Shown here piece after piece: positions 7,132 to 38,673 of a stretch of DNA of 64,000 nt. The DNA lies in assembly GCA_037131675.1 (NCBI GenBank), contig JBAXQO010000003.1, positions 2,487 through 66,486 of the forward strand. The letters run 5' to 3'. The position numbers and the translations under genes are program-made. This DNA is from a bacterium. Lineage in GTDB: Bacteria > Patescibacteriota > Minisyncoccia > Phycocordibacterales > CAIZIN01. Numbering within the stretch: the stretch's first letter is position 1; each line of letters starts with the position of its first letter. The notes under the pieces were generated by a model that was given only the letters and a program-made list of their open reading frames with translations, was not told the DNA's origin and made no database searches.

Positions 7132-8772
7132 ATGAAGAAAATTTTATTTCCATTGTTTGTGTTTTTGTGTCTGTTCACCTTTACTCCTCAGACCCATGCT
7201 GCTACCAAATATTGGTATAGTGCAAGTAGTACAAATTGGGCAACTAGTACTAATTGGTTCCTGGATATTAATCTCACTGCCCCAACGGTTGTGGCAACAA
7301 GTGGTGATTATGTAGTTTTGCTGCCCGGATCAGTTGCACCTGTTCTTAATTTAAGTAGTTCAACACCACCTGATTTTATTGAGTCTAGACTGACCGGAGA
7401 TGCTGGTTCTGCTGGTTTCGTTATTACTGGTAGTGGATTTTTCTCTGCGACAACCAGCGGAAATGTTAATTTCAAAGGATCTGTATTTAATAACGCATAT
7501 ATTACGGGAAACGTTGTGTTTAATGATAGTTCTCGAAATAATAATGGAATAATTTCTGGAAGTGCTATTTTTAATAATAGCGCATTAAATTCTGGTGATG
7601 TCCTTGGTAGTGTGACATTTAATGATGGTAGTGTGAATACTGCAGTAAGTGCGTTTGGATCTACTACGGGTTCTGTTATTTTTAATGGTAACTCTAGAAA
7701 TGTTGGTCAGATAAGAAATAATGCTATTTTTAACGGAAGTTCCACAAATGCAGCTAATATAACAGGTAATGCGGTATTTAATAATAATTCATATAATGAT
7801 GGAGGTACTATAGAAGGTAATGCTACTTTTAATACAACTTGGTATAACAATGGTTCTAACAGTGCAAATAATGGAACATTTACTGTTTCTGGTCATAGAG
7901 CCTGGAACTATAGAGTAGGTGGAACTGTTTATGGCTCCGACGGTTTACCGGTGAATGAATTTTTCTTTAAAGATTTTGCTTCCAACTTTGTTCCGATAAA
8001 TAAACCTTCATATTTTTTGGATTTTGCAAAAAATTATTCATCCTCACTGTCCGAAACAGCCACTTTTTGTGGGGATAATTCGGAAGATGTTGGTGGTACA
8101 GCCCAAAGAATGCGTTACTATAGCTCAGATTGTACGCAATCCACGACTACTCGAAATTTTGTAAGTTCAGTACCTTGGGTTGTATCCGCTGATGGTGTTC
8201 GGGTTAACATGGCAAGTAGCACATATAATGCAAGTACAACATTTACTGCAATTAACGGAGGCTCATTTATTCCAAGTAACCTTGTTCCTACGGGTCTTTC
8301 GATTTCAAATCCCGCCACAAGTACTACGGTTACATCGTGGGCGCCAGTAATAAATTGGGGTGATTCAACGAGTTTTGCATATTCTTTCGATGATACTGAT
8401 TACGTCGATCTAGCTTCTGCGACAAGTTCTATTCCAGCCCCAACATTTGGTCAACATGTATTATCAATTCGAGGTACAAATTCAACAGGTATAACAATAG
8501 TTTCATCTTCATTTACTTATTCCCAACCTGTCGTTGTTAATTCTGGAGGTGGTTCATCTGGTGGGTCATCTCATGGAGGTGGTGGAGGTGGAGGGGGCTC
8601 AGCTAAGACGACCGCAACTGCAAGTACCTCGGTATCAACCTTAAAAGTTCCGGTAACTCCGGAAACAATTACAGCACTTAAACAAGAGCTTACAAAACAA
8701 CTTATAGCAGCTCTTCAGGAATTGCTGAAACAGCTTATTGCTGAGTTGGCCAAACTTCAGGCTGCTAAGTAA
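7132..8772 (+). CDS. Secreted beta-helix-like repeat protein with Gly/Ser linker and C-terminal coiled coil (possible surface or adhesin protein)
   Basis: Signal peptide MKKILFPLFVFLCLFTFTPQTHA; many ~19-20 aa repeats of type GN(A/V)xFNxxSxN; GGGSSGGSSHGGGGGGGG linker; heptad coiled coil LKQELTKQLIAALQELLKQLIAELAKLQAAK. Confidence 0.6.
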   Translation: MKKILFPLFVFLCLFTFTPQTHAATKYWYSASSTNWATSTNWFLDINLTAPTVVATSGDYVVLLPGSVAPVLNLSSSTPPDFIESRLTGDAGSAGFVITGSGFFSATTSGNVNFKGSVFNNAYITGNVVFNDSSRNNNGIISGSAIFNNSALNSGDVLGSVTFNDGSVNTAVSAFGSTTGSVIFNGNSRNVGQIRNNAIFNGSSTNAANITGNAVFNNNSYNDGGTIEGNATFNTTWYNNGSNSANNGTFTVSGHRAWNYRVGGTVYGSDGLPVNEFFFKDFASNFVPINKPSYFLDFAKNYSSSLSETATFCGDNSEDVGGTAQRMRYYSSDCTQSTTTRNFVSSVPWVVSADGVRVNMASSTYNASTTFTAINGGSFIPSNLVPTGLSISNPATSTTVTSWAPVINWGDSTSFAYSFDDTDYVDLASATSSIPAPTFGQHVLSIRGTNSTGITIVSSSFTYSQPVVVNSGGGSSGGSSHGGGGGGGGSAKTTATASTSVSTLKVPVTPETITALKQELTKQLIAALQELLKQLIAELAKLQAAK

Positions 8773-28005: not shown

Positions 28006-28127
28006 TGGTCGGCTTTTATTTTATGGAGATATCGAGAATCGGTCACGAGTCAGATTTTTGTCGTCACAAAAATCTGCTCTCGACCCCGACTCGCACTTTT
28101 TTCTGCTGAAAAAAGTATGCTCCGTCT

Positions 28128-28173
28128 TTCGATTCCGCACGTAGGCAAAACTCTTTGCCTACTGCATCTCCAC
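28128..28173 (+). repeat. Inverted partial copy of the ssrA 3' end (T-loop plus acceptor), split by a 24-nt hairpin; candidate island boundary or recombination site
   Basis: ttcgattccgc[a cgtaggcaaaactctttgcctac t]gcatctccact; without the bracketed hairpin it equals the reverse complement of 33455-33476 (ttcgattccgcgcatctccact). Confidence 0.5.
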
Positions 28174-28187
28174 TTGAATTTTGTACA

Positions 28188-28222
28188 GAAAAAACACCAG
28201 AAAGGTTCTGGTGTTTTTTCAA
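28188..28222 (+). terminator. Rho-independent terminator
   Basis: aaaaacaccagaaaggttctggtgtttttt. Confidence 0.65.
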
Positions 28223-28448
28223 CAAAATATCAGTGGACATAGTGCGTGAAAGTTGGAACCAACTATATCCTTGGATATTTGAAGCGTCTCAGGCGATTGT
28301 AGGGCAGGGGCGTGTTGAAAATGTTTATGTTTAGAGCAATATCAGAATATATCAGTATCACAAGAAGGGAATTGAATTAGTGAAAAGGAGTTCTGTGTGA
28401 ATATCTACAAATTGACTTTTAATAAGCTTGGAGTAAAGTAAATTCTTT

Positions 28449-28985
28449 ATGAATCCTGACGAAAAAATATTGGAAGCTAAAGATATGAGAAATATAATCC
28501 ATGAAAGAGGGTTGTATTCTGAGGAACGAGCAAACGAAGCCTCTATTGAATTTATTAGACTCGAGGTTCAAATCGCAACACTTCTACTTGGTTTAACTGG
28601 CGTGTTTTGGAATCTTTACTCCTCAAACTTGAAGGGGGTTGCTATTGCTTCAACTGCAGCAATAATTTTGATAAAAATAGCCTTTTCTTTCATATTGTTT
28701 TTTCTTGTAGGTTCTCTTTCGGTAGGTTTAATTCAATTGAAAAGGGTTGAGAAGTTTTGGGACGGAGTATCTTTGACTCGCACAGTTAGATTTAATAAAT
28801 GGCATGATGTTATAGCGAAAAAAACTACTTTTGAAGAGGCTCACGCATATCATGAAGGAACCAAAATAGAAGGAGGAGCTATGATTCAAACACCAAAATG
28901 GCCTTGGATACTTCAGAGTGTTTTTCTAGGGATTTCTATAACTTTAATATTTGGTATAGCGATAGCATTTGTTGTTGTGAGTTAA
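28449..28985 (+). CDS. Hypothetical membrane protein (island cargo)
   Basis: 178 aa with 3-4 predicted TM helices. Confidence 0.5.
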   Translation: MNPDEKILEAKDMRNIIHERGLYSEERANEASIEFIRLEVQIATLLLGLTGVFWNLYSSNLKGVAIASTAAIILIKIAFSFILFFLVGSLSVGLIQLKRVEKFWDGVSLTRTVRFNKWHDVIAKKTTFEEAHAYHEGTKIEGGAMIQTPKWPWILQSVFLGISITLIFGIAIAFVVVS

Positions 28986-29142
28986 GACATACGTGGTAAA
29001 ATAAATGAAGGTTATTAATTAATCTTAGTAATCAAAAATATGAAAATATCTGGAACATCTTCAACTATTTAAGAAACAGCTCCCATCAGGGAGTTGTTTT
29101 ATAATGGTGGCAAAAACAAATTTTAAATAAGCTTTTACTCAA

Positions 29143-29706
29143 ATGATTTCAGAACTCGATTTTAAAAATGAATTGATACGCAAATTGAGTGTCGAAAAAG
29201 GATGGATTGATGGTGATAAAGAAATTTCAGATGGTAAAAAAGTTGATATTTTGAATCACAGAAAAAAGGTTGCGATTGAGGTCAAAGATGACACAGTCCA
29301 TAAATCAGAAATGCCCTCTCCAGAAAGACCAATAATATGTACCACGACGGATATAGGAAGGATGAATAAGATATTGTCCGACCATATTAAAAAAGCCAGA
29401 ATAAAGTTTAAAAAATATTCTGACTATAAAACAATTTTATTGATTAGGACTGAACATAGAATTATGGATACTGTGAGATATGCAATTGATGGCTTACATA
29501 CTTACACTCAAACTTCTTATATTGGTAGGAGAGGAAAATATAGTGAGCACACACGAGAGAACATTGGGTGTTATATCATATGTGATTCTGATGGAGGTCT
29601 TCATTACATACCAAATCCTCATTGTAAGTTTTCAGAGAATTTAGTTTCAAAAAGAGAAGCTGAGGATATACTGGAACAGTCTCTTGATGAAATTCGTGAG
29701 GTTTAA
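29143..29706 (+). CDS. Hypothetical protein, possible PD-(D/E)XK-type nuclease fold
   Basis: KKVDILNHRKKVAIEVKDD gives a D...E-V-K spacing like PD-(D/E)XK; weak. Confidence 0.35.
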   Translation: MISELDFKNELIRKLSVEKGWIDGDKEISDGKKVDILNHRKKVAIEVKDDTVHKSEMPSPERPIICTTTDIGRMNKILSDHIKKARIKFKKYSDYKTILLIRTEHRIMDTVRYAIDGLHTYTQTSYIGRRGKYSEHTRENIGCYIICDSDGGLHYIPNPHCKFSENLVSKREAEDILEQSLDEIREV

Positions 29707-30003
29707 AACGGATACTGATGAACAGTTCAATAACAGTTAAAATACGCTGAGGAACAGCCTAAAAACAGCGTAGCAAAGTCGGATAGATTTTTGGGAAGAA
29801 GTGTATTAAAATATGAAGACAACTTAATAATGTTAGAAGTAGCCTAAACCAGTGAGAAATTGCTGGCATGGTGAAGAAAGACCAGTAACGATTAAAGAAC
29901 CCATCATATGGGGCGTCGTTACTGGCCTTACTGGGAAACTGGTAAGGAGGGCGAAAGCTCTCACCTATGTGGTGGGCTTTTTGCTATCTTAATTTAAAAA
30001 ACT

Positions 30004-30618
30004 ATGTTTAATTTTTTTCATAAATTAGGTATTGGAATTGTATCGGCGTTTGTTGCATTTACAGGGTCCTTCCATACAGCTCCTATTGCTGTAACCCAAA
30101 CTGGAACATCCAGTGCTTCAGAAATCGTAGATACTTCTTCTGTTGTCTCTCATGTTCAAAAAGAGGAAACTAAAAAGTCAGCTGCTATAGACAATTCAGC
30201 AGAGATACAAGCACAGGTTCAATTGCAATTAAAAGCTAAAGCAGAACAAGATGCTTTGATTGCAAAACAAAAAGCTGATGAACAAGCTAAGTTGGATGCG
30301 CAAAAAGCTGAAGCGGATAGGGTGGCTCGAATCAACACAATAAAAGCACAGCAAGCCATAGACAGAGCAAATGAAGATGCAAGAAACGCACAGGCTCAAA
30401 TTGACTCACAAAGACAGGCAAAGCAAGAAAAGCTAGATGCTGTTAATTTAAAAATTGCCAATCTAAATGCTAAATATGCTGCAGACATTAAAGCAGCAAG
30501 AAGTGGAGGTGCTACATTGGAGCAGTCAGATGCTTTTGTAAGAGATTTGAATAGTCGTTACACAGCAGATTACGATGCATTACAAGCTGAGTATCAGCAG
30601 ATTCAGTACAGTAATTAA
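30004..30618 (+). CDS. Secreted or membrane-anchored Ala/Gln/Lys-rich coiled-coil protein
   Basis: N-terminal hydrophobic segment then a long AQ/K-rich low-complexity helix. Confidence 0.5.
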   Translation: MFNFFHKLGIGIVSAFVAFTGSFHTAPIAVTQTGTSSASEIVDTSSVVSHVQKEETKKSAAIDNSAEIQAQVQLQLKAKAEQDALIAKQKADEQAKLDAQKAEADRVARINTIKAQQAIDRANEDARNAQAQIDSQRQAKQEKLDAVNLKIANLNAKYAADIKAARSGGATLEQSDAFVRDLNSRYTADYDALQAEYQQIQYSN

Positions 30619-30623
30619 ATAAG

Positions 30624-31313
30624 ATGGACCAAGCTGAAACAAAAAAAGAAAACCAGCTTTTAAAAAAACTTGAACCGTTGCTGTGGTTTTTCGGTAGGAC
30701 TATAACTTACATTGTTGTTTGGGTTATTTTAAATAGTTGGCTCAACCCAGACACAGCAAATGTTTCTCTGGGTATGCTTACCTTCAATCAATTGTTGTCT
30801 ACGGTATCTTTTTACATAGCTTCTATTTGGTTGATAGTGAAATATTCAAATGGGTTTAGTAAATACTCTGATACAAAAGAGATGTGGTCGAGTGTTGGTT
30901 ACTTGGCTATCATAGGGGTTGTTGTTCTGGTTGGGTATGTTTATTCTTCGGAAAATCCACAAAATAAATATCCTCAAACAGTTGTTCCAGCAAATTCTGG
31001 ATTTCAGAATGTTGCTAAGGACACGCTTGAAAAAACACCCGAACCTGCAAAGACTAAAATGGAACCTAACCAGATACCAGTTCAGGTGATGAAAGTAAAT
31101 AATGGGTTTGCGCTAAAGATACCAAATACGATTTCATCAACTTGTGTTTGGAATTACAATGGGGGAAGCGCTGTTATACCGTACACAAAAACAACACATG
31201 TTGATGACTCAACAGCGTTTCATTATTTGATTCTTGATGGTGACTATTATGATTTTAAAGTTTCTTGCGCTGACAGCTTTGGTAATTCCTACGGCGGAAT
31301 CTTTCCGCAATAA
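30624..31313 (+). CDS. Hypothetical membrane protein with a C-terminal extracytoplasmic domain
   Basis: 229 aa; 3 TM helices then a soluble domain. Confidence 0.5.
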   Translation: MDQAETKKENQLLKKLEPLLWFFGRTITYIVVWVILNSWLNPDTANVSLGMLTFNQLLSTVSFYIASIWLIVKYSNGFSKYSDTKEMWSSVGYLAIIGVVVLVGYVYSSENPQNKYPQTVVPANSGFQNVAKDTLEKTPEPAKTKMEPNQIPVQVMKVNNGFALKIPNTISSTCVWNYNGGSAVIPYTKTTHVDDSTAFHYLILDGDYYDFKVSCADSFGNSYGGIFPQ

Positions 31314-31450
31314 TCACTGAGGGTGTTTGTTTTTATGGTTGTGTCGTGTTATAATTCTGGTAAAGAAGGCATCTAGTTTTTTAAAAACACAGTTTCTATT
31401 TAGCGCTCGGAGACGGTTAATACAAATTACCCTTACCTAAGAGCACTGAA

Positions 31451-31774
31451 ATGGTTTACAAAAACCATCTTAGTGTCTTTTTCGTTTGGAATAAAAAAGA
31501 AGGCACAAAAGATGCCTTCTTTTTTATTTGTATTAACCACATAAAAATGCGCTCTATAAAAGCAAGTTATAAAGCTGTGCAAGATAAGAATCCACATCTG
31601 GGTGATTATCTTTGTTTGGCAAAGGCAGTGAGAGGGAAGAAGTATTCAAGAAAGAATCTGGTAAAAGCATTCAAAGATTTGATTGCAAATGAGGACTATA
31701 TAAAAAACGAAACTAAAGAGCTCGTTAGTTATTTAGAGTATCTCACAAATACCCCTGAGGAGGTCGAAAACTAA
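31451..31774 (+). CDS. Hypothetical small protein upstream of the recombinase
   Basis: 107-aa ORF; no recognisable family. Confidence 0.3.
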   Translation: MVYKNHLSVFFVWNKKEGTKDAFFFICINHIKMRSIKASYKAVQDKNPHLGDYLCLAKAVRGKKYSRKNLVKAFKDLIANEDYIKNETKELVSYLEYLTNTPEEVEN

Positions 31775-31955
31775 GGCATATTTCGTCTAAGAGGCCATTT
31801 AAAATCAAAATGTTAAGCATAGAGCGTTGCAAAGAAATACTTGGGAATAAAACGATTTCTGATACCGAAATTGAAAAACTTCGGGAGGCGCTTTATGCTG
31901 TGGTCGAAAATGTTGTAGACGATTACGTTTACAGTTGTGTTAATATTCAATCAAC

Positions 31956-33524
31956 ATGCAAAAAGCAATTATCTATTGCAGAGTTTCCTCAGAGCGTCAG
32001 AAAATAGAAGGACACGGTTTAGAAAGCCAAGAACATCGATGTCGCGACCTCGCCTTTCAAAAAGGATATGAAGTTGAAAGAGTCTTCAGGGATAGTTTTT
32101 CTGGGGGAGGAGATTACACCAAAAGGCCAGCTATGTCTGAGCTACTTGCCTATATGGACTCCAAGCCATTCAACAGCTATATGGTTATCTTTGATGACTT
32201 AAAGCGACTAGCCAGAGATACAGAGCAGTATATAAAGCTTAAGAGAGCATTGGAGTTACGTCGAGCAAAAGTTGAATGTCCGAATTTTGTTTTTACGGAC
32301 TCTCCTGAAGGGCAGTATGTTGAAACAATAATGGCGGCAACCGCTCAACTTGAACGTGAACAGAATCGAAGACAGGTTATGCAGAAAATGAAAGCAAGGT
32401 TGGAGTTAGGTTATTGGTGTTTTCCAGATGTTCCTGAGGGGTATAAATTCACAAAGGACCCAGTGCACGGGAAGTTGCCAATACTTGTTCTAGAAAAAGC
32501 TTCCATAGTAAAGGAAGCCCTTGAGGGTTTTGCTACAGGTCGGTTTATTGAACAAGAGGACGTTAGAAGATTTCTTCAAGAAAAAAATATCTTGAATGGA
32601 AAACCTGTTTATCTTGAATATGTGAAAAGGATGCTAACAAGAGTATTTTACGCAGGGTACGTTGAATATGCTCCTTGGGAAGTCGCTAGAAGGCAGTCTA
32701 AGCATGAACCGCTAATTGATTTGGTAACCTTTGAAAAGATACAGACCAAGCTCAGAAGTAAAACAACTACTCACACAAAGAAAGTTATTAATGAGGATTT
32801 TCCTTTAAGGGGCTTTGTTCTTTGTGGTGACTGCAAACAGCCTGTTACAGCGAGTTGGAGTAAGGGAAGGAATGGAAAGTTTCCTTATTACCGATGCAAG
32901 ACAAAGGGGTGTTCTGAAAGAAATAAAAGTATACGTAAGAAAACTATTGAAGAAGAGTTTTCCGACATTATAGGAAAGATAAAACCAAGCGAGGAGGTTC
33001 TGAATCTGACTAAAGAAATAGTTGGAGATGTTTGGAGAAAAAGAGAATCTGATTTGGTTATCGGAAAATATCGGTCTGAAACGGAGATAGAAAACCTAGT
33101 AAAAGAGAAGGATAGGTTTTTGGAGTTGTTATCTAGAGCAACTGACAACAATGTGATTTCTGCTTACGAAGAGAAGGTTGCAAAAATATCTGAAAAAGTT
33201 TTGGTTCTAAAAGATTCCTTGATGTCATACGACAAACATAAACCAAACATTGAAACCGCTTTGGATATTGTTTTTGATTTTCTTAAAAACCCTTTAAAAC
33301 AATGGGAGAAGGAAAATATTCACACGAAAAGATTGGTTCTAAAGTTGGTCTTCGAGAAGAATTTGGAATATAACAAAAATAGCGGGTTTGAAACCGCTAT
33401 TCTGTCGCTCCCCTTAAGGGTATTTACCCTCCCAGAGGCTCAAAAATCGTCGCTAGTGGAGATGCGCGGAATCGAACCGCGGTGCAAAAGATTTTTCTCA
33501 ATGAGTCTACAAGGTTTATCGTGA
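31956..33524 (+). CDS. Large serine recombinase (integrase); the annotated 3' end reads through into the ssrA 3' region
   Basis: N-terminal resolvase catalytic motif IYCRVSSERQ; recombinase domain; zinc ribbon CGDCKQ...YYRCKTKGC; coiled-coil region; last ~23 codons overlap the tmRNA 3' end. Confidence 0.8.
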   Translation: MQKAIIYCRVSSERQKIEGHGLESQEHRCRDLAFQKGYEVERVFRDSFSGGGDYTKRPAMSELLAYMDSKPFNSYMVIFDDLKRLARDTEQYIKLKRALELRRAKVECPNFVFTDSPEGQYVETIMAATAQLEREQNRRQVMQKMKARLELGYWCFPDVPEGYKFTKDPVHGKLPILVLEKASIVKEALEGFATGRFIEQEDVRRFLQEKNILNGKPVYLEYVKRMLTRVFYAGYVEYAPWEVARRQSKHEPLIDLVTFEKIQTKLRSKTTTHTKKVINEDFPLRGFVLCGDCKQPVTASWSKGRNGKFPYYRCKTKGCSERNKSIRKKTIEEEFSDIIGKIKPSEEVLNLTKEIVGDVWRKRESDLVIGKYRSETEIENLVKEKDRFLELLSRATDNNVISAYEEKVAKISEKVLVLKDSLMSYDKHKPNIETALDIVFDFLKNPLKQWEKENIHTKRLVLKLVFEKNLEYNKNSGFETAILSLPLRVFTLPEAQKSSLVEMRGIEPRCKRFFSMSLQGLS

Positions 33525-33838
33525 TTCGGATGTTTTAGGTTGATAATGCTCTACATCACGCGACATGCATTATCCGCCGATCTCTTATTTTAGTTTAAGC
33601 TCTTCAAAAGAGAAGTGAAGTGCCGAGTCTCACATTATTACACCAATCGTTTTCCGTGAGGCATTGAAAACGTTGACGTCGTTTTAGCTTACGCTAGAGC
33701 GAATTGAAGATCTGCCACACTGTAGTATGGAGATTTCACTGCTGTTTTTGCAGTTAGGGTTTGTGACCTTTTAAAGAGTTATCACAGCTCTACCTTGCAC
33801 AAAGAAAAAAGGTTCCTTTGTCTATGCCGATCATCCCC
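33457..33838 (-). ncRNA. ssrA: tmRNA (ssrA), ~382 nt
   Basis: 5' GGGGAUGAUCGG... pairs with 3' ...CAUCUCC-A, giving G1-C72, G2-C71, G3.U70 and A73 (Ala identity elements); T-arm GCGGUUCGAUUCCGCG; internal tag frame GCA GAU CUU CAA UUC GCU CUA GCG UAA (ADLQFALA*); smpB lies immediately upstream. Confidence 0.8.
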
Positions 33839-33842
33839 AATA

Positions 33843-34283
33843 TTATCGTTTCAAAGTTCTACCAAGCTCACGCTCTGTGTCTCGCTTTTTTATTGTCTGG
33901 CGTTTGTCGAATTTCTTTTTGCCACGACCAATTGCGATTTCAAGCTTAAGCTTTCGTCCTTTATTATACAACGAAACAGGCACAATAGTCAAACCCTTTT
34001 CAGAGGTTTTTCTTTCAATTTCATAGATCTCCTTTTTGGTGATTATGAGTTTTCTTGTACGAAGTGGTTGGTATTCTGTAGTGAGGTTGTTGGGCTGGTA
34101 TGGACGTATTTCAAAACCTACAATAAATGCTTCGCCACCACGGAGGAGTATGTGAGCGCCAGCCAGTTCACCTTGCTTGTTTCTCAGACTTTTTACTTCA
34201 GTCCCTGTAAGCTCAATACCGACCTCATATTTATCTATGATTTCGTAGTCAAATGTTGCTTTTTTGTTGAAAATAAGAGACAC
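33843..34283 (-). CDS. smpB: SsrA-binding protein SmpB
   Basis: NKKATFDYEIIDKYEVGIELTGTEVKSLR...GKKKFDKR; probable GTG start at 34283 (the track ORF extends to 34367). Confidence 0.85.
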   Translation of the reverse strand: MSLIFNKKATFDYEIIDKYEVGIELTGTEVKSLRNKQGELAGAHILLRGGEAFIVGFEIRPYQPNNLTTEYQPLRTRKLIITKKEIYEIERKTSEKGLTIVPVSLYNKGRKLKLEIAIGRGKKKFDKRQTIKKRDTERELGRTLKR

Positions 34284-38597: not shown

Positions 38598-38673
38598 TGG
38601 TGCGCGCACTAGGACTCGAACCTAGGACCACCGAGGTATAAGCTCGGCGCTCTACCAACTGAGCTATGCGCGC
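38598..38673 (-). tRNA. tRNA with anticodon UAU (Ile, AUA-decoding), CCA encoded
   Basis: Reverse complement GCGCGCA-TA-GCTCAGTTGGTAGAGCG-CCGAG-CTTATAC-CTCGG-TGGTC-CTAGGTTCGAGTCCTAG-TGCGCGC-A-CCA; cloverleaf fits; anticodon loop CU-UAU-AC. Confidence 0.8.

What the first reader, a model, noticed from the sequence alone, without database searches (positions are those of the whole stretch)
28128..34283. Mobile island with a large serine recombinase inserted at the 3' end of ssrA (tmRNA)
The smpB-ssrA pair lies on the minus strand (smpB 33843-34283, ssrA 33457-33838). Immediately beyond the ssrA 3' end lies a 522-aa large serine recombinase (31956-33524) whose reading frame runs into the tmRNA T-arm and acceptor. 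About 5 kb further on is a partial copy of the ssrA 3' end, ttcgattccgc...catctccact (28128-28173). tmRNA genes are classic integration hotspots. The ~5.3 kb between the two sites encodes only hypothetical membrane proteins, a coiled-coil protein and a possible PD-(D/E)XK protein, which fits island cargo. The second ssrA-end copy is inverted relative to ssrA rather than direct. That orientation fits an invertible segment or a past inversion better than a simple attL/attR pair.
Basis: partly seen in the sequence, partly recalled or inferred. Interest (0 to 1): 0.75.

Follow-up and report, generated by a model that had tools for sequence, protein, structure and literature searches.

The report
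Serine-recombinase mini-island at the tmRNA gene

Summary
ssrA, smpB, the 522-aa large serine recombinase (LSR) that runs 69 nt into ssrA, and the split inverted copy of the ssrA end are all where stated. The island reading is right; its boundary and the invertible-segment idea are not.

The element is window 28232-33454 (5,223 bp), flanked by a direct AGTGGA repeat (TCCAC(T), the last bases of ssrA). A relative about 90% identical has ssrA and the same flanks but no LSR and no cargo.

Related ~4.3-5.0-kb metagenome contigs show terminal overlaps expected of circles. They carry the two island ends joined at the same core, with the LSR reading frame continuing into a conserved 33-aa tail. That tail exon is intact at the far end of this island and about 30 others. 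So attP lies inside the LSR gene, and integration swaps the tail for antisense-t(m)RNA residues.

In 66 of the 80 best genome relatives (Patescibacteria and Alphaproteobacteria), ARAGORN finds the 3' end of a tRNA or tmRNA gene under the LSR gene's 3' end.

The inverted ssrA-end copy lies outside the island. It belongs to a structured ~150-nt module also found behind ssrA in island-free genomes.

The orphan LOOT RNA is frequent cargo.

The parts
33456..33838 (-). ssrA (tmRNA gene), the integration target. Its last bases TCCAC(T) form the crossover core.
   Evidence: ARAGORN; Rfam RF00023, 98.3 bits.
33843..34283 (-). smpB, a chromosomal gene upstream of ssrA.
   Evidence: Pfam SmpB 4.7e-48; exact 146-aa product on record.
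28232..33454 (+). The integrated element, 5,223 bp counting one copy of the core. All its genes lie on the + strand.
   Evidence: Homology to island-free L016 and L099 stops at 33456 and resumes at 28022. The left end is conserved in L001 and L004 from 28232-28234 onward. The ends are joined in L017 and L018 with a 6-bp overlap.
33455..33460 (.). ssrA-proximal copy of the core AGTGGA. The common core across islands is GTGGA.
28232..28237 (.). Distal copy of the core AGTGGA.
31956..33524 (+). Large serine recombinase, integrated form (522 aa). Residues 1-500 are element-encoded. Residues 501-522 (VEMRGIEPRCKRFFSMSLQGLS) are read from the antisense strand of ssrA.
   Evidence: Pfam; PHROG 95 integrase, 1e-66; alignment of homologues.
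28233..28334 (+). Tail exon of the recombinase: VDIVRESWNQLYPWIFEASQAIVGQGRVENVYV plus stop. It is in frame with residue 500 once the element ends are joined, giving a predicted episomal form of 533 aa.
   Evidence: The frame follows from the sequence. Fifteen of 120 database homologues end with this tail. HMM hit of 35.8 bits. Coding-type substitution pattern.
31810..32007 (+). Conserved 65-aa ORF overlapping the recombinase start. It is the only other gene shared by all five compared elements and is a candidate directionality factor or regulator (inference).
   Evidence: All-against-all BLASTP of island ORFs; no family match.
29841..29962 (+). LOOT RNA (Rfam RF03000), followed by a terminator-like hairpin and T-run at 29960-29976.
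   Evidence: 82.2 bits against a gathering score of 46.4; terminator scan; found in 19 related loci.
28449..31774 (+). Variable cargo: ORFs of 178 aa (28449-28985), 187 aa (29143-29706), 204 aa (30004-30618), 229 aa (30624-31313) and 107 aa (31451-31774). None has a significant family match.
   Evidence: The five ORFs had no BLASTP match (E <= 1e-3) to ORFs of the four other compared elements; a stretch around the LOOT RNA is shared with L001 at nucleotide level.
33376..33403 (-). Terminator-like hairpin and T-run on the ssrA strand, 53-80 nt downstream of ssrA, inside the recombinase codons NSGFETAIL. It is a candidate replacement terminator for ssrA after integration (inference).
   Evidence: the hairpin is kept in the close subfamily.
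28188..28220 (.). Perfect 15-bp hairpin flanked by A and T runs, on the chromosomal side. It is probably the original bidirectional terminator behind ssrA.
   Evidence: I24. The equivalent hairpin lies directly behind ssrA in island-free loci.
28024..28174 (-). Chromosomal structured module, not part of the island. It holds the inverted ssrA 3' end (28128-28174) split by hairpin 1, two further hairpins, and a degenerate direct copy of the ssrA end (28024-28049).
   Evidence: MFE -68.8 kcal/mol, z = -9.8 against mononucleotide shuffles. Homologous module in L016 and 16 further metagenome loci. In hairpin 1, 8 of 9 pairs show compensatory changes.

Best explanation
**What it is.** Window 28232-33454 is a small (5.2 kb) integrative element of a Patescibacteria (CPR) bacterium. 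Its large serine recombinase (LSR) inserted it at the extreme 3' end of the tmRNA gene.

**Crossover site.** The crossover lies within GTGGA. In ssrA sense this is TCCAC: the last three acceptor-stem bases, the discriminator A and the first C. ssrA therefore stays intact and no long tDNA repeat is made.

**attP inside the recombinase gene.** In the free element the LSR reading frame crosses attP and ends in a conserved ~33-aa tail (VDxVxESWNQLxSWvFEASxAI...). On integration the gene is cut after codon 500. Its 3' end is then read from the antisense strand of ssrA (VEMRGIEPR...). The tail exon is parked, intact but without a start codon, at the other end of the island (28233-28334). Excision would rejoin it.

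**What is shown.** The boundaries, the empty site in a relative, the joined-end contigs of related elements, the conservation and coding character of the tail, and the spread of this layout across relatives in Patescibacteria and Alphaproteobacteria.

**What is inferred.**
- That the tail swap changes recombinase activity or direction.
- That the conserved 65-aa ORF is a directionality factor.
- That the hairpin inside the LSR codons terminates ssrA transcription after integration.
- That this particular copy is still mobile.

**The inverted ssrA-end copy.** It belongs to a separate, chromosomally located structured module behind the original ssrA terminator.
For: - **Empty site.** L016 and L099 are about 90% identical in both flanks. 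They hold ssrA followed by 1.47 kb and then the NUDIX gene, with no LSR. Homology ends exactly at the ssrA 3' end.
- **Conserved ends.** The left end from GTGGAC onward is shared with L001 (89%) and L004 (82%), whose cargo differs. Junction sequences share only GTGGA, and the host base before it varies.
- **Free form.** In L017 and L018 the right end is joined to the left end with a 6-bp overlap. L018, L116 and L118 have exact 30-nt terminal overlaps, which I read as circles of 4,957, 4,748 and 4,270 bp, and ARAGORN finds no t(m)RNA gene on them.
- **Tail.** Fifteen of 120 database homologues end in the SWNQL tail, 10 of them on contigs of 3.6-5.9 kb. About 30 integrated loci keep an intact tail exon 3.9-8.5 kb upstream, always starting at the core (GTGGAC in most, GTGGAG in a few). 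Codon-position entropy is 0.97 / 0.67 / 1.28 for positions 1, 2 and 3.
- **Family.** In 66 of the 80 best genome hits, ARAGORN finds the 3' end of a tmRNA or tRNA gene (Ala, Met, Thr, Tyr, Leu, Arg, Ser), on the opposite strand, under the LSR gene's 3' end. Where the frame was read, the LSR ORF runs into it, about 1,500 nt from the LSR start.
- **Enzyme.** Resolvase, Recombinase and Zn-ribbon domains are present. AlphaFold gives the usual LSR architecture with a long coiled coil.
Against: - No circular or empty-site read or contig was found for this exact strain. All 8 listed contigs (of 11 read) with the identical NUDIX protein carry the island's first genes, so this copy could be fixed.
- Circularity rests on 30-nt terminal overlaps of Logan contigs, which tandem copies could also produce. 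L017 and L117 show no overlap.
- No replication gene was recognised on the circles. It is unclear whether they are episomes or excision products.
- The tail is helical in the AlphaFold model but at pLDDT 36-58, with no confident contact. Nothing shows what it does.
- Which of the four dinucleotides within GTGGA is cut cannot be told.
- Tail exons were searched for across the alphaproteobacterial loci with the Patescibacteria-derived HMM and none scored; no alphaproteobacterial tail model was built, so their presence is unresolved.
Confidence: 0.85

Rival explanations
1. Invertible segment. The region between the inverted ssrA-end copy (28128-28174) and ssrA is flipped by the recombinase, or was inverted in the past.
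For: The two copies are inverted, exact over 11 + 11 nt and far beyond chance. The enzyme is a serine recombinase, the class that includes invertases (PHROG 125 secondary hit).
Against: - The same inverted copy lies 40-60 nt behind ssrA in L016, L099 and other loci with no LSR nearby.
- The element ends are direct GTGGA repeats, 58 nt inside that copy.
- Related elements L001 and L004 have no such copy.
- All 8 listed contigs with the same NUDIX protein show one orientation.
- The protein has the full LSR C-terminal domains, not the small-invertase layout.
Confidence: 0.02
2. A fixed, no longer mobile remnant. The island in this genome is inherited vertically and the recombinase is idle or domesticated.
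For: - All 8 listed contigs carrying the identical NUDIX protein carry the island's first genes at the same place.
- An LSR next to ssrA recurs in related genomes L001, L004 and L019-L027.
- No free form of this exact element was seen.
Against: - The LSR ORF, both cores and the 33-codon tail exon are intact. Older tandem copies elsewhere show decay, with stops in L023 and L032.
- Cargo differs between islands with 73-77% identical LSRs.
- A 90%-identical relative lacks the island.
Confidence: 0.12
3. The contigs with joined ends are tandem chromosomal arrays or assembly artefacts, not free circles. The tail is then only ever expressed from the upstream copy of a tandem pair.
For: - Second, partly degenerate tail exons in L023, L032 and L080 show that tandem accretion happens.
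- L017 carries a second LSR start at its end and has no terminal overlap.
Against: - Three independent contigs close on themselves at unit length (4.3-5.0 kb) with no t(m)RNA or chromosomal gene.
- Ten of the 15 tail-bearing homologues sit on contigs of 3.6-5.9 kb.
- attP x attP recombination, which a tandem of complete copies would need, is not a normal LSR reaction (established knowledge of serine integrases).
Confidence: 0.08
4. Prophage or phage satellite integrated at ssrA.
For: tmRNA genes are classic prophage sites. The LSR matches a PHROG integrase family.
Against: - The element is only 5.2 kb.
- No cargo ORF matches any PHROG.
- No relative of the LSR was found in 2.9 million viral contigs.
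Confidence: 0.03

Closest known systems
Serine integrases of phages and islands (phiC31, Bxb1, A118, TP901-1; CcrB, XisF)
   Same: - Resolvase, Recombinase, Zn-ribbon and coiled-coil architecture. The nearest solved chain is the TP901-1 integrase catalytic domain, and the weak NCBIfam hits are XisF and CcrB.
- Short core with no long att identity.
- The element ends share only 5-6 bp.
   Different: - The target is the 3' terminus of a tRNA or tmRNA gene. A 2020 survey (PMC7192596) found this in only 14 of 297 serine-integrase islands and called it previously unreported.
- attP lies inside the integrase ORF.
- No curated family reaches its cut-off.
Myxophage Mx8 integrase (IntP/IntX)
   Same: attP lies within the int coding sequence, and integration gives the gene a new 3' end. 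This is proposed to modulate integrase activity (PMC6070905).
   Different: Mx8 Int is a tyrosine recombinase of a phage of roughly 50 kb (size from my own knowledge). Here the enzyme is a serine recombinase on a 4-8 kb element, and the replacement tail is antisense t(m)RNA sequence of arbitrary length.
Genomic islands in tRNA/tmRNA genes with tyrosine integrases (Islander/TIGER type)
   Same: Integration at the 3' part of ssrA, target gene kept functional, integrase gene next to the target, and tandem accretion of islands.
   Different: There is no tyrosine integrase and no displaced tDNA fragment of tens of bases as a direct repeat. The identity is 5-6 bp at the very end of the gene.
Tycheposons of Prochlorococcus
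   Same: Small cargo-carrying elements beside tRNA or tmRNA genes. A minority (27 of 937) carry a large serine recombinase (bioRxiv 10.1101/2020.12.28.424599).
   Different: The host phylum differs, and most tycheposons use tyrosine recombinases and carry replication genes. Any relationship between their LSRs and this family was not tested.
LOOT RNA (Rfam RF03000)
   Same: Window 29841-29962 matches the full model at 82 bits.
   Different: I found no paper in the held library that discusses its function or genomic context. Here it is carried inside LSR elements.

Membership tests
Large serine recombinase (serine integrase) | N-terminal Resolvase catalytic domain with the RVSS serine motif | tested here: met
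   PF00239 at 1.6e-24, residues 4-150. The sequence begins MQKAIIYCRVSSERQ.
Large serine recombinase (serine integrase) | C-terminal Recombinase domain, zinc ribbon and coiled coil | tested here: met
   PF07508 and PF13408 both exceed their cut-offs. Long helices at 346-427 in the AlphaFold model of homologue P0013.
Large serine recombinase (serine integrase) | Catalyses attP x attB integration with a 2-nt staggered cut | not testable with these tools
   Only the products are seen: two junctions sharing GTGGA, joined-end forms and an empty site.
tRNA/tmRNA genomic island of the tyrosine-integrase type | Tyrosine integrase encoded at the island end | tested here: not met
   The only recombinase is the LSR. 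No other island ORF matches any family.
tRNA/tmRNA genomic island of the tyrosine-integrase type | Direct repeat of a displaced 3' fragment of the target gene at the far end | tested here: not met
   Only AGTGGA (6 bp) is repeated directly at the element ends. The longer copies lie outside the element and also occur in island-free genomes.
Invertible DNA segment with serine invertase | Inverted repeats at the two ends of the segment, serving as crossover sites | tested here: not met
   The element ends are direct repeats. The inverted copy is 58 nt outside and independent of the LSR.
Invertible DNA segment with serine invertase | Both orientations present in a population | tested here: not met
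   All 8 listed contigs with the same NUDIX protein show one orientation. No read-level test was possible.
Mx8-type integrase gene that spans attP | attP inside the integrase ORF, so that integration changes the C-terminus | tested here: met
   Joined-end contigs continue the ORF into the tail. Integrated copies end in antisense t(m)RNA.
Mx8-type integrase gene that spans attP | Tyrosine recombinase | tested here: not met
   The enzyme is a serine recombinase, so the resemblance is an analogy of layout, not membership.
LOOT RNA (RF03000) | Score above Rfam's gathering threshold over the full model | tested here: met
   82.2 bits against 46.4, model positions 1-121.

The most novel reading that the evidence does not exclude
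The C-terminal exon swap is a built-in directionality or activity switch for a serine integrase. The full-length episomal protein, with its conserved SWNQL helix, would be the integration-competent form. The integrated, tail-less form would be either locked or excision-prone. The DNA topology of the element itself would then set the enzyme's state across a whole clade of t(m)RNA-targeting serine integrases in Patescibacteria and Alphaproteobacteria. A second possibility is that the LOOT RNA is a maintenance or regulatory RNA of these 4-8 kb elements, which carry no recognisable replication protein.
Probability: 0.3. Interest if true: 0.8.

Novelty: new variant of a known kind. Interest (0 to 1): 0.62.

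Why it matters
- **Target choice.** Serine integrases are major genome-engineering tools and were thought to avoid tRNA and tmRNA genes (PMC7192596). This clade appears dedicated to the 3' terminus of those genes. The genome scan found 474 relatives among 185,579 species genomes. Among the best 80 hits the targets include tmRNA and several tRNAs.
- **Regulation.** The attachment site sits inside the enzyme's own gene, so integration and excision rewrite the enzyme. For serine recombinases this is an undescribed way to couple enzyme state to element state. I base that on the held library and my own knowledge, not on an exhaustive search.
- **Testability.** Relatives occur in cultured Alphaproteobacteria, including Thioclava marina, Jannaschia aquimarina and Roseovarius strains.
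- **Context for other features.** The finding documents tiny mobile elements in CPR bacteria and places the orphan LOOT RNA in a genomic context.

Tried and rejected
- **Second ssrA-end copies in L001 and L004.** I searched with short-word BLAST and patterns. Only chance-level hits appeared.
- **Viral contigs.** A scan for LSR relatives found none.
- **Cargo families.** Pfam, PHROGs, PADLOC and NCBIfam gave nothing significant for the window's cargo or the 65-aa ORF. Pfam also gave nothing for nine larger ORFs of related elements, so no replication protein was recognised.
- **FtsH look-up.** An exact look-up with the longest ORF start failed. The smpB look-up succeeded instead.
- **Tail structure.** The AlphaFold tail is helical but low confidence, so no fold search was run.
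- **LOOT literature.** The 2017 paper holds no text on LOOT in the held copy and has no supplements on file. A search for 'LOOT motif' found nothing.
- **Patescibacteria literature.** A search for serine-recombinase integrative elements in Patescibacteria returned 0 papers.
- **Readings of the module that I considered and dropped:**
  - A symmetric LSR half-site. The module is displaced by a 40-57-nt terminator and is absent from L001 and L004.
  - A tRNA-like gene on the opposite strand. The T-stem does not pair, and both G-U pairs in hairpin 1 fall on the ssrA-sense strand.
  - A relic of an inverted attL. The similarity of the L016 spacer to the LSR 3' end is confined to an A-rich run.

Full report
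**1. Observation**

- ARAGORN and Rfam place the tmRNA gene at 33456-33838 on the minus strand.
- smpB lies at 33843-34283. It matches Pfam SmpB, and its 146-aa product is on record verbatim.
- A 522-aa protein with Resolvase, Recombinase and zinc-ribbon domains is encoded at 31956-33524 on the plus strand. It runs 69 nt into ssrA in antisense.
- At 28128-28174 the plus strand reads TTCGATTCCGC, then 25 nt forming a 9-bp hairpin, then GCATCTCCACT. This is the last 22 nt of ssrA, exact, inverted and split. The pattern occurs nowhere else in the window and in none of 100 shuffles.

**2. Where the island really ends**

An exact look-up of the smpB product returned a contig, L016, that is about 90% identical to the window.
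- In L016, smpB and ssrA are followed by only 1,474 bp and then the same NUDIX gene that lies left of the island here. There is no recombinase and none of the window's cargo.
- Homology stops exactly at the ssrA 3' end (window 33456) and resumes at 28022.
- A second, independent assembly (L099) shows the same layout.

Two related islands were found through LSR homologues of 77% and 73% identity (L001, L004).
- Both have the same layout: small plus-strand ORFs, then the LSR, then convergent ssrA-smpB.
- Their cargo differs, but they share an ~70-nt left end with the window. It begins AGTGGACATAGTG in the window and L001, and TGTGGACTTGGTG in L004.

Lining up all junctions gives a direct repeat AGTGGA at 28232-28237 and 33455-33460.
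- The base before GTGGA is host-specific in other islands, so the common core is GTGGA.
- In ssrA sense this is TCCAC: the last three acceptor-stem bases, the discriminator and the first C.
- The element is therefore 28232-33454, 5,223 bp.
- ssrA is left whole through the first C after the discriminator, and only its trailer changes. CCA is not fully encoded with or without the island.

**3. attP lies inside the recombinase gene**

An alignment of homologues shows a conserved C-terminal stretch, NSGFETAILSLPLRVFxLPEAQxxxL. After it the sequences fall into classes.
- Some end in VEMxGIEP..., the antisense translation of the tmRNA acceptor and T-arm.
- Some end in VDPTGLEPATSSLQMR..., antisense of an ordinary tRNA.
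- Fifteen of 120 end in a third, mutually conserved tail: VDxVxESWNQLxSWvFEASxAI.... Ten of these 15 sit on contigs of 3.6-5.9 kb.

If the window element is circularised at its core, the LSR frame continues in phase into 28233-28334. It then reads VDIVRESWNQLYPWIFEASQAIVGQGRVENVYV followed by a stop, which is the third kind of tail.

I fetched five tail-bearing contigs.
- In L017 and L018 the island's right end is joined to its left end with exactly the 6-bp overlap.
- L018, L116 and L118 have exact 30-nt terminal overlaps. I read these as closed circles of 4,957, 4,748 and 4,270 bp. ARAGORN finds no tRNA or tmRNA gene on any of the five.

An HMM of the tail finds an intact tail exon in about 30 integrated loci.
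- It always starts at the core (GTGGAC in most, GTGGAG in a few) and lies 3.9-8.5 kb upstream of the t(m)RNA junction.
- Across 28 such exons, variability is highest at third codon positions (entropy 0.97 / 0.67 / 1.28), as expected of coding sequence.
- The stretch AAAGTTGGAAC is nearly invariant even at third positions. It may also be a recombinase-binding motif (the second point is inference).
- Three loci hold a second, partly degenerate tail exon, which indicates tandem accretion and decay.

**4. Mechanism**

*Shown.* The free element carries a 533-aa-type LSR whose gene spans attP. Recombination within GTGGA at the end of a tRNA or tmRNA gene cuts the gene after codon 500. The integrated gene ends in whatever the antisense strand of the target encodes (22 residues here, 4 to more than 60 elsewhere). 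The tail exon is kept intact at the other end of the island.

*Inferred.*
- The swap may alter activity or direction. The layout parallels phage Mx8, whose attP lies in int and whose prophage form has a new 3' end (PMC6070905).
- The 65-aa ORF overlapping the LSR start is the only other gene shared by all five compared elements. It may be the directionality factor.
- The palindrome encoding NSGFETAIL, with the T-run that follows it on the ssrA strand, scores as an intrinsic terminator 53-80 nt behind ssrA. It is kept in the close subfamily and may replace the displaced ssrA terminator.
- AlphaFold models the tail as a helix but at low confidence.

**5. Family**

A scan of one genome per species found 474 relatives.
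- The best 80 are Patescibacteria at 43-78% identity and Alphaproteobacteria (Roseovarius, Thioclava, Jannaschia, Rhodovulum, Cereibacter and others) at 43-46%.
- In 66 of the 80, ARAGORN finds the 3' end of a tmRNA or tRNA gene (Ala, Met, Thr, Tyr, Leu, Arg, Ser), on the opposite strand, under the LSR gene's 3' end.
- In the 18 alphaproteobacterial loci whose frame I read, the ORF runs from a homologous motif (GYRTAexxFPFKVLA) into ...|MV.., the antisense of the tRNA CCA end. The junction lies about 1,500 nt from the LSR start.
- The tail HMM, built from Patescibacteria tails, scored no alphaproteobacterial locus. Whether those relatives have a tail exon is therefore open.

A 2020 survey stated that use of a t(m)RNA gene by a serine integrase "has not been reported previously", with 14 of 297 cases (PMC7192596). 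Prochlorococcus tycheposons include a minority with LSRs. I found no description of this clade or of the split-gene layout for a serine recombinase in the held library. That search was not exhaustive.

**6. The inverted copy**

The copy lies 58 nt outside the island, beyond a perfect bidirectional terminator hairpin (28188-28220).
- L016 has the same arrangement directly behind ssrA: a terminator, then GTGGAGATG, hairpin, GTGCGGAATCGAA, then two more hairpins and a direct copy of the last ~17 nt of ssrA.
- The module folds at -69 kcal/mol, z = -9.8 against mononucleotide shuffles. It has no Rfam match.
- A pattern scan of metagenomes found it in 16 further loci (one more hit, L100, looks like chance). 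In the 10 contigs long enough to show ssrA, it sits behind the ssrA terminator, 40-60 nt after ssrA in most and ~210-220 nt in four. None has an LSR nearby.
- The base next to the acceptor strand tracks the local ssrA sequence: G in the window lineage and C in the others.
- In hairpin 1, 8 of 9 pairs show compensatory changes, 99% of cells are paired, and both G-U pairs lie on the ssrA-sense strand.
- A model of the 5' half also finds the module 42-46 nt beyond the left end of other islands (L026, twice in tandem; L029; L061), with weaker hits in L032 and L038.

The module is thus a chromosomal feature, or an older miniature element, next to the attachment site. It is neither an end of this island nor required by it, since L001 and L004 lack it. 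Its function is unexplained. My leading guesses are a structured RNA read in the ssrA sense or a non-autonomous miniature element. I hold neither with confidence.

**7. LOOT RNA**

Rfam's LOOT family matches 29841-29962 at 82 bits, followed by a terminator-like hairpin.
- Rfam also finds it in the L001 island.
- A model built from these two copies finds it in 19 of the LSR loci searched, none of them labelled Alphaproteobacteria, 0.4-3.5 kb upstream of the LSR in most and on either strand.
- Wherever island ends are mapped, it lies inside them.
- It is also present on contig L118, one of the three that close on themselves, and partly on L117.

**8. Verdict**

The island reading is correct and now has exact ends, an empty site in a close relative and joined-end forms of related elements. 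The inversion reading is wrong. The finding is a new variant of a known kind: a serine-integrase element that targets the tmRNA 3' terminus and whose integrase gene is split by integration. Whether this particular copy is still active, and what the tail does, remain open.

Noticed in passing
window 28024-28174 (also L016 5601-5758, L099-L115, L026 2995-3175, L061 2504-2560): A conserved, strongly structured ~150-nt module sits behind the ssrA terminator. It comprises an inverted copy of the ssrA 3' end split by a covarying hairpin, two more hairpins, and often a direct copy of the ssrA end. It has no Rfam match. It occurs in tandem in L103 and L026. Its function is unknown.
   Followed up: partly
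window 29841-29962 (+): A LOOT RNA (RF03000) lies inside the island and is followed by a terminator-like hairpin. The same RNA occurs in 19 related LSR loci and on contigs L118 and L117, so it appears to be element-borne.
   Followed up: partly
window 33376-33403 (-): A terminator-like hairpin and T-run on the ssrA strand are encoded by the recombinase codons NSGFETAIL. This could explain part of that motif's DNA-level conservation.
   Followed up: partly
window 38598-38673 (-): A tRNA-Ile with anticodon TAT is present here, and ARAGORN also calls it in L001-L004 and several module-bearing loci. This anticodon is uncommon in bacteria (from my own knowledge).
   Followed up: no
L016 5759-7038: The island-free relative has its own 1.3-kb insert with three small ORFs between the module and the NUDIX gene. 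It is bounded by AAAATAAAAA-like repeats and absent from the window, so the site is variable on both sides of the module.
   Followed up: no
L023 1637, L032 3653, L080 2137; L103 about 8040-8060: Second, partly degenerate tail exons lie beyond the current island end. In L103 a degenerate one (GTGGATATTAGTGAATGA) lies between two modules. These look like traces of earlier integrations stacked at the same site.
   Followed up: partly
L046-L098 (for example L067 Thioclava marina, L051 Jannaschia aquimarina): Alphaproteobacterial relatives (43-46% identity) have the LSR 3' end reading into the CCA end of tRNA-Ala, -Met, -Thr, -Tyr, -Leu, -Arg or -Ser genes. They might correspond to the 'promiscuous' Alpha/Betaproteobacteria serine-integrase clade mentioned in PMC7192596. 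This was not tested.
   Followed up: partly
L007, L010, L012 (contig ends) and L009 (ends 118 nt past the LSR stop): Several assemblies of the same strain break inside the island near the LOOT region or inside ssrA. This may reflect repeats or population heterogeneity at these points.
   Followed up: no
L116 1081-1569: One circular element carries a SocA_Panacea (antitoxin-type) domain protein. It is the only cargo with a family match among the elements examined.
   Followed up: no
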